From assembly GCF_054482595.1 (NCBI RefSeq), contig NZ_CM137008.1: DNA of 64,000 bases. One strand, written 5' to 3'. Each line of letters starts with the position of its first letter. The stretch's first letter is position 1. Made by a program: the position numbers and the translations under genes. The notes beneath the pieces are model-generated. The model was given only the letters and a program-made list of their open reading frames with translations, did not search any database and was not told the DNA's origin. Of this stretch, positions 5,172 through 5,469 are shown piece by piece.

Positions 5172-5303
5172 TACGGTGCACCACGCCTGACTGAAGAACT
5201 GCGTGCTCAGGGTTACCACTTCAACGTAAAACCGTGGCAGGAGGTCCGGACTGAAAAAACTGCTCAGGACATCATCGGCAGGGAACGCACTGCTAGTCTG
5301 TAA
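5172..5303 (+). pseudogene. Short fragment resembling an IS3-family transposase segment ([20 protein letters not shown]...)
   Basis: 44-codon frame ending in TAA with no start context; similarity is from memory of IS3-family OrfB proteins only. Confidence 0.25.
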
Positions 5304-5304
5304 A

Positions 5305-5469
5305 CTGAACCGACTGGGGCGCAGTATGTGGCATCTTGTCGTGCTGTTGGAGGAGCTGTGCGAACGTGGTATTAACTTTCGTGCTCTGGCCCAATCTATA
5401 TTTGCCCAACAATGGGGGGACGAATGCTGTAAAAGTAAAACAATCTGCGATCTCAAAGTTATTGTGTGA
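5305..5469 (+). pseudogene. pinH: Serine recombinase (Pin/Gin-type DNA invertase) internal fragment, pinH-like remnant
   Basis: Frame encodes LNRLGRSMWHLVVLLEELCERGINFRALAQSI, matching the conserved Pin/Gin region [32 protein letters not shown]; lacks the N-terminal catalytic domain and a start codon. Confidence 0.5.

What the first reader, a model, noticed from the sequence alone, without database searches (positions are those of the whole stretch)
5172..5469. Remnants of mobile-element genes between the orphan gene and the autotransporter
A Pin/Gin-type serine recombinase internal fragment (LNRLGRSMWHLVVLLEELCERGINFRALAQSI) sits immediately after a short frame resembling an IS3-family transposase segment. 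Neither has a start or full length. This indicates past insertion and deletion events shaping this accessory segment.
Basis: partly seen in the sequence, partly recalled or inferred. Interest (0 to 1): 0.3.

Follow-up and report, generated by a model that had tools for sequence, protein, structure and literature searches.

The report
Dead IS3 and invertase gene scraps
Upstream of the E. coli adhesin gene ypjA lies a short dead stretch, the tip and a small inner piece of insertion sequence IS3 fused to an inner third of a Pin/Gin DNA-invertase gene; it is the pseudogene already named pinH in K-12 and is ordinary genomic debris.

Summary
The window is E. coli chromosome: ileY, ypjCB (DUF5507), relic, ypjA/EhaD, island, ssrA.

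- **IS3 piece:** window 5152-5238 is 89% identical to the inside of IS3 (orfB 5' part; E 2e-21 against 28 Gb).
- **Invertase piece:** 5239-5400 matches codons ~41-94 of the 184-codon pinE gene (87% DNA identity, E 9e-39; Pfam Resolvase E 1.2e-9; Gin crystal structure residues 39-94). The catalytic serine, E-helix, DNA-binding domain, start codon and crossover sites are all missing.
- **Already annotated:** K-12 calls it pseudogene pinH (b2648, maps to window 5230-5469). PGAP calls 5233-5400 a partial recombinase.
- **Distribution:** about 3,040 of 5,426 complete E. coli genomes carry it. The four other alleles I aligned have identical junctions. It diverges 12-13% between haplotypes, against 2-5% in its immediate flanks.
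- **New context:** just to the left (4992-5146) is a fossil attachment junction. It joins a Fels-2-type phage attP arm, a degenerate ssrA 3' end, and 56 bp of the right arm of a CP4-57-like island, into which IS3 inserted.

I found no evidence of function. Low interest; already known.

The parts
4992..5064 (-). Fossil of the terminator-side arm of the attP of Fels-2-like (Peduoviridae) ssrA-integrating phages. It contains a hairpin plus T-run (GGGGTTACG..CGCAGCCCC TTTTTCTTT on the minus strand, one mismatch in the stem).
   Evidence: Window 4992-5074 is 90.6% identical to the sequence abutting ssrA in NZ_CP019274.1 (H155). That stretch is 97.8% identical to the annotated Fels-2 attP (H213). 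The direct comparison with phage Cartapus 23357-23441 gives 89.4%, E 1e-24.
5065..5090 (-). Degenerate copy of the ssrA 3' end (att core). It varies strongly between strains.
   Evidence: The window allele matches ssrA in 21 of 26 alignment columns (81%) with 2 gaps, which is weak on its own (E 0.48). The K-12 allele TGGTGGGCTGGCAGTGACTGAATTGG is clearly related both to ssrA TGGTGGAGCTGGCGGGAGTTGAACC and to the attR cores of CP4-57-like islands.
5091..5146 (.). 56 bp of the right-end arm of a CP4-57-like (P4-type integrase) ssrA island, cut off by the IS3 insertion.
   Evidence: It aligns with the attR arm of an intact CP4-57-like island in strain AF22 (window 5061-5124 vs L013 8001-8065: 80%, pairwise E 3.9e-10, genome-wide E 4e-5). 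It aligns more weakly with the K-12 CP4-57 attR arm. It is unique to this locus in E. coli: 3,066 genomes, nearly all with a single place (3,074 places in all).
5147..5164 (+). IS3 left terminal inverted repeat (nt 1-18), TGAGCTTACCCAGCAATA, 17 of 18 matching.
5165..5238 (+). IS3 nt ~543-618, about 25 codons of the N-terminal HTH region of orfB, upstream of the DDE domain. It is joined to the terminal repeat by deletion of IS3 nt 19-542 at an imperfect 13-bp repeat (TTACCCAGCAATA / TTACCCGGTCAAA).
   Evidence: 89% identity to IS3, E 4e-28 pairwise and 2e-21 genome-wide. HTH_21 is weak, E 0.0027.
5239..5400 (+). Internal fragment of a Pin/Gin/Hin-type serine DNA invertase gene (codons ~41-94 of 184). 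This is the homologous core of pseudogene pinH.
   Evidence: PGAP partial pseudogene at 5233-5400. K-12 pinH b2648 maps to 5230-5469.
5401..5469 (+). Tail of the open frame with no recombinase homology. From 5423 it overlaps the autotransporter upstream module.
   Evidence: pinE alignment collapses after 5400. ymgJ-locus homology starts at 5423.
5423..5778 (+). Context, not part of the relic: the conserved upstream module of ypjA. It is 89% identical to the ymgJ/ycgI upstream region near minE and to upstream regions of plasmid autotransporter genes. It sets the right boundary of the debris.

Best explanation
Window 5147-5400 is a non-functional composite pseudogene. It holds the left tip and a 74-bp inner piece of insertion sequence IS3, fused head-to-tail to an inner third of a Pin/Gin-family DNA-invertase gene. 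It is the orthologue of E. coli K-12 pseudogene pinH (b2648). Shown: the identities of the pieces, the exact junctions, the absence of every catalytic and DNA-binding element, the identical structure in the five aligned alleles, and faster divergence than the immediate flanks. Inferred history: (1) IS3 transposed into the right-end arm of a CP4-57-like island, 56 bp from its degenerate ssrA core, which left an intact left IS end at 5147. (2) A deletion by illegitimate recombination, not by transposase, joined IS3 nt ~618 directly to pin nt ~120. This removed the rest of IS3 and whatever lay between. (3) A second deletion at an imperfect 13-bp repeat removed IS3 nt 19-542. (4) A further deletion joined pin nt ~282 to DNA just upstream of the ypjA leader module. 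All of this predates the split of the E. coli lineages that carry the segment, and the relic has since drifted neutrally. It does nothing now. It is a historical marker of repeated mobile-element traffic between ssrA and glaH.
For: Identity of the pieces. Existing annotation as a partial recombinase and as pinH. The two pieces are in different frames with stops between them. Only residues ~39-94 of a 184-193-aa invertase are present, so the Ser nucleophile near residue 10, the E-helix and the C-terminal HTH are absent. Against pinE, 10 of the 16 differing codons are non-synonymous, including the conserved W, D and R of [14 protein letters not shown]. No pix/gix-like crossover site occurs anywhere in the window, and there are no meaningful inverted repeats around the relic. 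No sigma-70-like promoter lies on the + strand between 4874 and 5850. Both flanks are always 773-778 bp apart in the rows that hold both flanks, among the 60 listed of 2,976 such genomes. The junctions are identical in K-12, E200086, Ec-FL1-1X and a diverged contig. IS3 and pin relics differ 12-13% between haplotypes, against 2-5% for the X arm and the ypjA upstream module. IS3 terminal repeat abutting a CP4-57-like arm.
Against: No expression data could be consulted, so transcription or translation of the 47-codon ATG ORF (5326-5469) is not excluded. The order of the deletions is not determinable from sequence. No strain with an intact IS3 or intact pin gene at this site was found, so the intermediate states are hypothetical. 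Only up to 60 rows of each large search were listed, so rare variant architectures could have been missed. Present-in-every-carrier is also what a selected element would show, although the high divergence argues otherwise.
Confidence: 0.9

Rival explanations
1. The debris has been co-opted as cis-regulatory DNA, such as a promoter, an H-NS nucleation site or a leader, for the downstream autotransporter gene ypjA.
For: It lies 400-660 bp upstream of ypjA on the same strand and is present in every genome that has both flanks. The adjacent X arm and the 5423-5778 module are well conserved.
Against: The IS3 and pin pieces are the fastest-diverging parts of the intergenic region, at 12-13%. No + strand promoter-like site was found. 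The conserved ypjA upstream module also occurs at the ymgJ/ycgI locus and on plasmids without any IS3 or pin DNA, so the module does not need the relic.
Confidence: 0.06
2. The open frame 5230-5469 (or its ATG ORF 5326-5469, 47 aa) makes a small protein, for example a fragment that interferes with the Pin invertases of resident prophages.
For: The frame is open for 240 bp in the window and K-12. K-12 Pin enzymes cross-act on one another's segments (PMC12529663), so a modulator is conceivable.
Against: Codon changes are mostly non-synonymous. Strain E200086 has TGA where the others have TGC in this frame (GAGCTGTGAGAAC), and PGAP's partial-recombinase call is shorter in both E200086 and Ec-FL1-1X. 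The fragment lacks the E-helix dimer/tetramer interface (residues ~100-135), which is what a dominant-negative would plausibly need. No promoter was found.
Confidence: 0.03
3. A sub-hypothesis on origin, compatible with the best explanation: the pin fragment and the Fels-2-type attP arm 170 bp to its left are both leftovers of one Fels-2-like prophage that once sat at ssrA.
For: Fels-2-like phages (Cartapus, 500465-1) carry both an attP arm 89% identical to 4992-5074 and a Gin-type invertase 77-78% identical to 5248-5381, in the same relative orientation. Fels-2 encodes the invertase Fin (PMC12529663).
Against: The order is wrong for a simple deletion. In a prophage the invertase lies 8 kb before the attP arm, whereas here it lies after it, with a CP4-57-like arm and IS3 in between. 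The fragment is closer to e14 pinE (86.5%) and to the vB_EcoM phage invertases (83.7%) than to Fels-2-like invertases.
Confidence: 0.25

Closest known systems
E. coli K-12 pseudogene pinH (b2648), between ypjB and ypjA
   Same: It is the positional orthologue. K-12 coordinates 2783065-2783304 map to window 5230-5469. The K-12 allele differs from the window at 1 of 92 positions in the IS3 relic and 1 of 162 in the pin relic, and has the same junctions.
   Different: Nothing substantive. Here the upstream gene is an intact 484-aa ypjCB rather than split ypjB/ypjC. The K-12 record annotates only pinH at this spot, not the IS3 remnant or the att fossil.
PinE of cryptic prophage e14, and the Gin/Hin/Cin/Fin invertases (small serine recombinases, Pfam PF00239)
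   Same: 87% DNA and 70% protein identity over codons ~41-94. The KL(D/N)RLGRS motif is retained, including the two conserved arginines.
   Different: Only about 29% of the gene is present. There is no Ser nucleophile, E-helix or HTH, no start or natural stop, no crossover sites and no invertible segment.
IS3 (IS3 family, 1258 bp)
   Same: Left terminal repeat 17/18, plus 89% identity over nt 531-618.
   Different: 92 of 1258 bp remain. There is no right terminal repeat, no orfA, no frameshift site and no DDE domain.
attR junctions of CP4-57-family ssrA islands, and attP of Fels-2-like phages
   Same: The flank left of the IS3 end reproduces a Fels-2-type attP arm, then an ssrA-like core, then a CP4-57-type right arm.
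   Different: It is a fossil. It lies about 12.5 kb from the live ssrA gene and is separated from it by ypjA, about 150 bp matching the sequence that abuts ssrA in ATCC 25922, a second att core and another island.

Membership tests
Small serine recombinase / DNA invertase (Pin, Gin, Hin; Pfam PF00239 Resolvase) | Sequence homology to the catalytic domain | tested here: met
   Pfam E 1.2e-9, 38.9 bits against a cut-off of 23.3, profile positions 48-103 of 145. Gin structures 3uj3/4m6f residues 39-94, E 1e-12.
Small serine recombinase / DNA invertase (Pin, Gin, Hin; Pfam PF00239 Resolvase) | N-terminal catalytic serine motif (Y-x-R-V-S-T, Ser ~9-10) | tested here: not met
   Homology begins at residue ~38-41. 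Upstream DNA is IS3, not pin.
Small serine recombinase / DNA invertase (Pin, Gin, Hin; Pfam PF00239 Resolvase) | E-helix and C-terminal helix-turn-helix DNA-binding domain | tested here: not met
   Homology stops at residue 94 (window 5400). The alignment to pinE collapses after that.
Small serine recombinase / DNA invertase (Pin, Gin, Hin; Pfam PF00239 Resolvase) | Complete ORF with its own start and stop | tested here: not met
   PGAP flags both the N- and C-terminus as missing.
Small serine recombinase / DNA invertase (Pin, Gin, Hin; Pfam PF00239 Resolvase) | Inverted crossover sites flanking an invertible segment next to the gene | tested here: not met
   No match to the e14 site TTGGTTTGGGAGAAGG with up to 3 mismatches in 64 kb. 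Only chance-level inverted repeats in 4700-6100.
IS3 (IS3 family insertion sequence) | Nucleotide homology to IS3 | tested here: met
   88.6% over 88 bp, E 2e-21 genome-wide. IS3 nt 531-618.
IS3 (IS3 family insertion sequence) | Both terminal inverted repeats | tested here: not met
   The left repeat is present, 17/18, at 5147-5164. No right repeat occurs anywhere in the window.
IS3 (IS3 family insertion sequence) | orfA-orfB with programmed frameshift and a DDE (rve) domain | tested here: not met
   Only ~25 codons of the orfB N-terminal HTH_21 region remain.
IS3 (IS3 family insertion sequence) | 3-bp target-site duplication | not testable with these tools
   The right end of the element has been deleted.
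K-12 pseudogene pinH (b2648) | Same position (between ypjCB/ypjB and ypjA) and the same sequence | tested here: met
ssrA attachment-site junction (fossil), left flank 4992-5146 | Homology to a known attP arm of ssrA-integrating phages | tested here: met
ssrA attachment-site junction (fossil), left flank 4992-5146 | Copy of the ssrA 3' end at the core | tested here: inconclusive
   The window allele matches in 21 of 26 alignment columns with two gaps, E 0.48. The K-12 allele and the attR cores of three islands align convincingly.
ssrA attachment-site junction (fossil), left flank 4992-5146 | Island-arm homology on the other side of the core | tested here: met
   80% over 65 bp to the arm of an intact CP4-57-like island in AF22.

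The most novel reading that the evidence does not exclude
The fossil att junction beside the relic (core at ~5056-5090) might still be used as a secondary attachment or recombination site by ssrA-targeting integrases. That would explain why the ~25-bp core differs sharply between strains while the 56-bp arm next to it is 96-98% conserved. Recombination between this core and the cores at 10541-10560 or at ssrA would then mobilise or delete the ypjA adhesin cassette, together with the pinH debris, as a unit.
Probability: 0.05. Interest if true: 0.35.

Novelty: already known. Interest (0 to 1): 0.08.

Why it matters
It matters little. The recombinase fragment is a named K-12 pseudogene that NCBI's annotation pipeline flags routinely. 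The modest added value is anatomical. The relic can now be read as IS3 terminal repeat, then a small piece of IS3 orfB, then the pin core. It sits inside a fossil junction of a Fels-2-type phage arm, an ssrA-like core and a CP4-57-type island arm. This documents at least four different mobile elements within about 410 bp. It also marks the ypjA/EhaD adhesin segment, present in about 56% of complete E. coli genomes, as DNA once tied to the ssrA integration hot spot. That is useful for annotation and as a stable lineage marker, not as new biology.

Tried and rejected
- **Relatives in other species.** A scan of genome contigs with YpjCB, meant to find outgroup loci that keep more of the donor elements, returned only two E. 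coli-like contaminant contigs. One of them (L009) simply carries the same relic.
[quoted passage not shown] A search for pinH found only a gene list.
- **Source of the X arm.** Searching 5075-5150 against phages gave only chance hits, E >= 0.2.
- **Empty site or intact element.** The concatenated-flank search found neither. The listed rows that hold both flanks all have the same 773-778 bp spacing.
- **Invertible promoter hypothesis.** An invertible promoter for ypjA, which would be expected if pin had once driven phase variation, has no support. There are no crossover sites and no significant inverted repeats.
- **Element integrated at ileY.** No copy of the ileY 3' end occurs downstream; the best matches are 9-14 nt and at chance level.
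- **RNA families.** Rfam has no family in 4874-5808.
- **Single tandem-array model.** An ssrA array that puts the Fels-2 arm, CP4-57 arm, pin and ypjA in the observed order fails. The 150 bp that abut ssrA in the island-free strain ATCC 25922 lie to the right of ypjA in the window. The deeper history of the 10.7-kb segment therefore stays unresolved.

Full report
**Where the window comes from.** Window 4900-5800 is 100% identical to several E. coli chromosomes, for example XH990, NZ_CP019359.1. The local gene order is as follows:
- alpha-amylase-family gene (ygaQ)
- ileY, 2593-2668
- a 484-aa DUF5507 gene (ypjCB), 3419-4873
- the finding
- ypjA/EhaD autotransporter, 5808-10382
- a small integrase-bearing island
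- ssrA, 17583-17945, on the minus strand

**Checking the observation.** [20 protein letters not shown] is at 5172-5231, and LNRLGRSMWHLVVLLEELCERGINFRALAQSI is at 5305-5400 in the adjacent frame.

Both have overwhelming support as homologues.
- Against 28 Gb of E. coli genomes, window 5152-5238 matches IS3 transposase genes at 88.6% identity (E 2e-21). Window 5248-5388 matches pinE at 86.5% (E 9e-39). Pairwise values are E 4e-28 and 1e-45.
- The translated recombinase piece hits Pfam Resolvase (E 1.2e-9, above the gathering score, profile positions 48-103 of 145).
- It also hits PinE residues 38-94 (70% identity, E 8e-20) and the Gin invertase crystal structures at residues 39-94 (E 1e-12).
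- These are the only IS3-like and pin-like sequences in the 64-kb window.

**Anatomy.**
- **5147-5164:** TGAGCTTACCCAGCAATA is the IS3 left terminal inverted repeat, 17 of 18 matching.
- **5165-5238:** IS3 nt ~543-618, about 25 codons of the orfB N-terminal HTH region. The switch from terminal repeat to this piece falls inside an imperfect 13-bp repeat (TTACCCAGCAATA at the IS end, TTACCCGGTCAAA at nt 530-542). So nt 19-542 were lost by a short-homology deletion.
- **5238/5239:** IS3 is fused with no clear filler to pin nt ~120.
- **5239-5400:** pin homology runs to nt ~282, codon 94 of 184, and then stops.
- **5401-5422:** 22 bp that I could not assign.
- **5423-5778:** a module 89% identical to the ymgJ/ycgI upstream region near minE and to upstream regions of plasmid autotransporter genes.

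The IS3 and pin pieces are in different frames with stops between them.

**Function.** I found nothing to suggest the relic can work.
- The invertase fragment lacks the N-terminal serine nucleophile, the E-helix and the C-terminal DNA-binding domain.
- Ten of the 16 codons that differ from pinE are non-synonymous, and they hit conserved residues (W to C, D to N, R to W in [14 protein letters not shown]).
- One natural allele (E200086) has a TGA stop in the frame.
- No e14-type crossover site exists anywhere in the window, and no significant inverted repeats surround the region. The relic therefore offers no substrate for invertases acting in trans, and nothing suggests an invertible ypjA promoter.
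- The IS3 piece has one end only and no transposase domain.
- A consensus scan finds no + strand promoter in 4874-5850, and Rfam finds nothing there.

**It is already known.** MG1655 annotates pseudogene pinH (b2648) between ypjB and ypjA, and its coordinates map exactly to window 5230-5469. PGAP annotates 5233-5400 as 'recombinase family protein, incomplete, missing N-terminus and C-terminus'. pinH appears in K-12 gene lists such as PMC10652928. In the records I inspected, no IS3 remnant is annotated at this spot.

**Distribution and age.**
- About 3,040 of 5,426 complete E. coli genomes carry at least 80% of 5150-5420.
- 2,976 genomes carry both flanks. In the 60 listed rows, those holding both flanks have them 773-778 bp apart, with no empty site and no fuller element.
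- K-12, two divergent alleles (E200086, Ec-FL1-1X) and a ~7%-diverged contaminant contig all share every junction.
- Between haplotypes the IS3 and pin pieces differ by 12-13%. The X arm and the ypjA upstream module differ by only 2-5%.

I read this as old, fixed, neutrally drifting debris.

**Context found by following the left flank.** Three findings stand out.
- **Phage attP arm.** Window 4992-5074 is 89-91% identical to the terminator-side arm of the attP of Fels-2-like Peduoviridae, which integrate at ssrA. The match holds for Fels-2's annotated attP, SopEPhi, RE2010, Cartapus and 500465-1.
- **Degenerate ssrA core.** That arm is followed by a degenerate ssrA 3' end. The K-12 allele shows this more clearly than the window allele.
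- **Island arm.** The next 56 bp (5091-5146) align with the right-end arm of CP4-57-family islands. In strain AF22 the same arm continues into an intact cbtA/yfjZ/... island. The IS3 terminal repeat starts exactly where this arm is cut.

So within about 410 bp there are remains of four mobile elements: a Fels-2-type phage end, a CP4-57-type island end, IS3, and an invertase-bearing element.

The whole ygaQ-to-ypjA segment (about 10.7 kb) is accessory. In ATCC 25922, glaH and ssrA are 682 bp apart. The 150 bp that abut ssrA in that strain correspond to window 10392-10541, immediately after the ypjA stop codon. They are followed in the window by a second att core (10541-10560) and the current island.

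**Most likely history (inferred).** IS3 inserted into the arm of a CP4-57-like island. Illegitimate deletions then removed most of IS3, the 5' part of a pin gene and everything between them, and later the 3' part of pin up to the ypjA leader.

Whether the pin gene came from the same Fels-2-like phage as the attP arm is open. Such phages carry both features in the right orientation. However, the order is wrong for a simple deletion, and the fragment is closer to e14 pinE. I could not reconstruct a single tandem-array model that also places the 150 bp that abut ssrA in ATCC 25922 to the right of ypjA. The deep history of the 10.7-kb segment therefore stays unresolved.

**Verdict.** The feature is an ordinary, previously annotated pseudogene relic with no indication of function. 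Interest is low.

Noticed in passing
window 4992-5146: Fossil attachment junction: a Fels-2-type attP arm with a terminator hairpin, a degenerate ssrA 3' core, and 56 bp of a CP4-57-type island right arm. It lies about 12.5 kb from the live ssrA gene. No feature is annotated here in the records inspected.
   Followed up: yes
window ~5056-5090: The ssrA-like core differs sharply between strains: window TGGTGATCTGTCGGTG-TTGAATTGG, K-12 TGGTGGGCTGGCAGTGACTGAATTGG, with other versions in E200086 and Ec-FL1-1X. The adjacent 56-bp arm is 96-98% conserved. Most genomes align to the window only from 5071 onward. This is unexplained.
   Followed up: partly
window 5423-5778: The ypjA upstream region is a portable module. 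It is 89% identical to the ymgJ/ycgI (autotransporter pseudogene) upstream region near minE, and 88-90% identical to upstream regions of plasmid autotransporter genes. The YmgJ reading frame is broken here, and PGAP instead calls a 39-aa hypothetical protein at 5624-5743. This suggests a conserved non-coding leader rather than a gene.
   Followed up: partly
window 1-10391 versus L015 (ATCC 25922) 6354-7035 and L013 (AF22) 7313-8016: The ~10.7-kb ygaQ-ileY-ypjCB-pinH-ypjA block is missing from ATCC 25922 and AF22, where 333 bp of unrelated sequence takes its place. glaH and ssrA are then only 682 bp apart in ATCC 25922. Which state is ancestral is unknown.
   Followed up: partly
window 10392-10560: The ~150 bp that abut ssrA in ATCC 25922, including a bidirectional hairpin at 10392-10420 just 3' of the ypjA stop codon, lie here. 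They are followed by a displaced ssrA-like core, GGGCTGGCGGAGTCTGAA (10541-10560).
   Followed up: partly
window 10561-17582: A small ssrA island carrying an AbaSI-family restriction endonuclease, a primase-like pseudogene, a psu-like pseudogene, an AAA ATPase plus an HNH protein, and an integrase (annotation taken from the collinear XH990 record). Perfect 28-bp direct repeats lie near both ends (10614-10641 and 17450-17477) and resemble integrase arm-type sites.
   Followed up: no
window 3419-4873: ypjCB is a single intact 484-aa DUF5507 ORF here. In K-12 it is annotated as two genes, ypjC (DUF5507) and ypjB (DUF5508), so the K-12 pair is probably a split gene.
   Followed up: no
window beyond ~17.4 kb versus XH990: The window is identical to XH990 over 4900-5800 but departs from it further on. 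XH990 has further island genes (RloB-family protein, AAA ATPase) and a lambdoid prophage carrying a full IS3 from about 17.7 kb. The window runs from ssrA (17583-17945) to a Phe-leader element (35704-35829, the pheA region) and an rrn operon (42271-47280).
   Followed up: no
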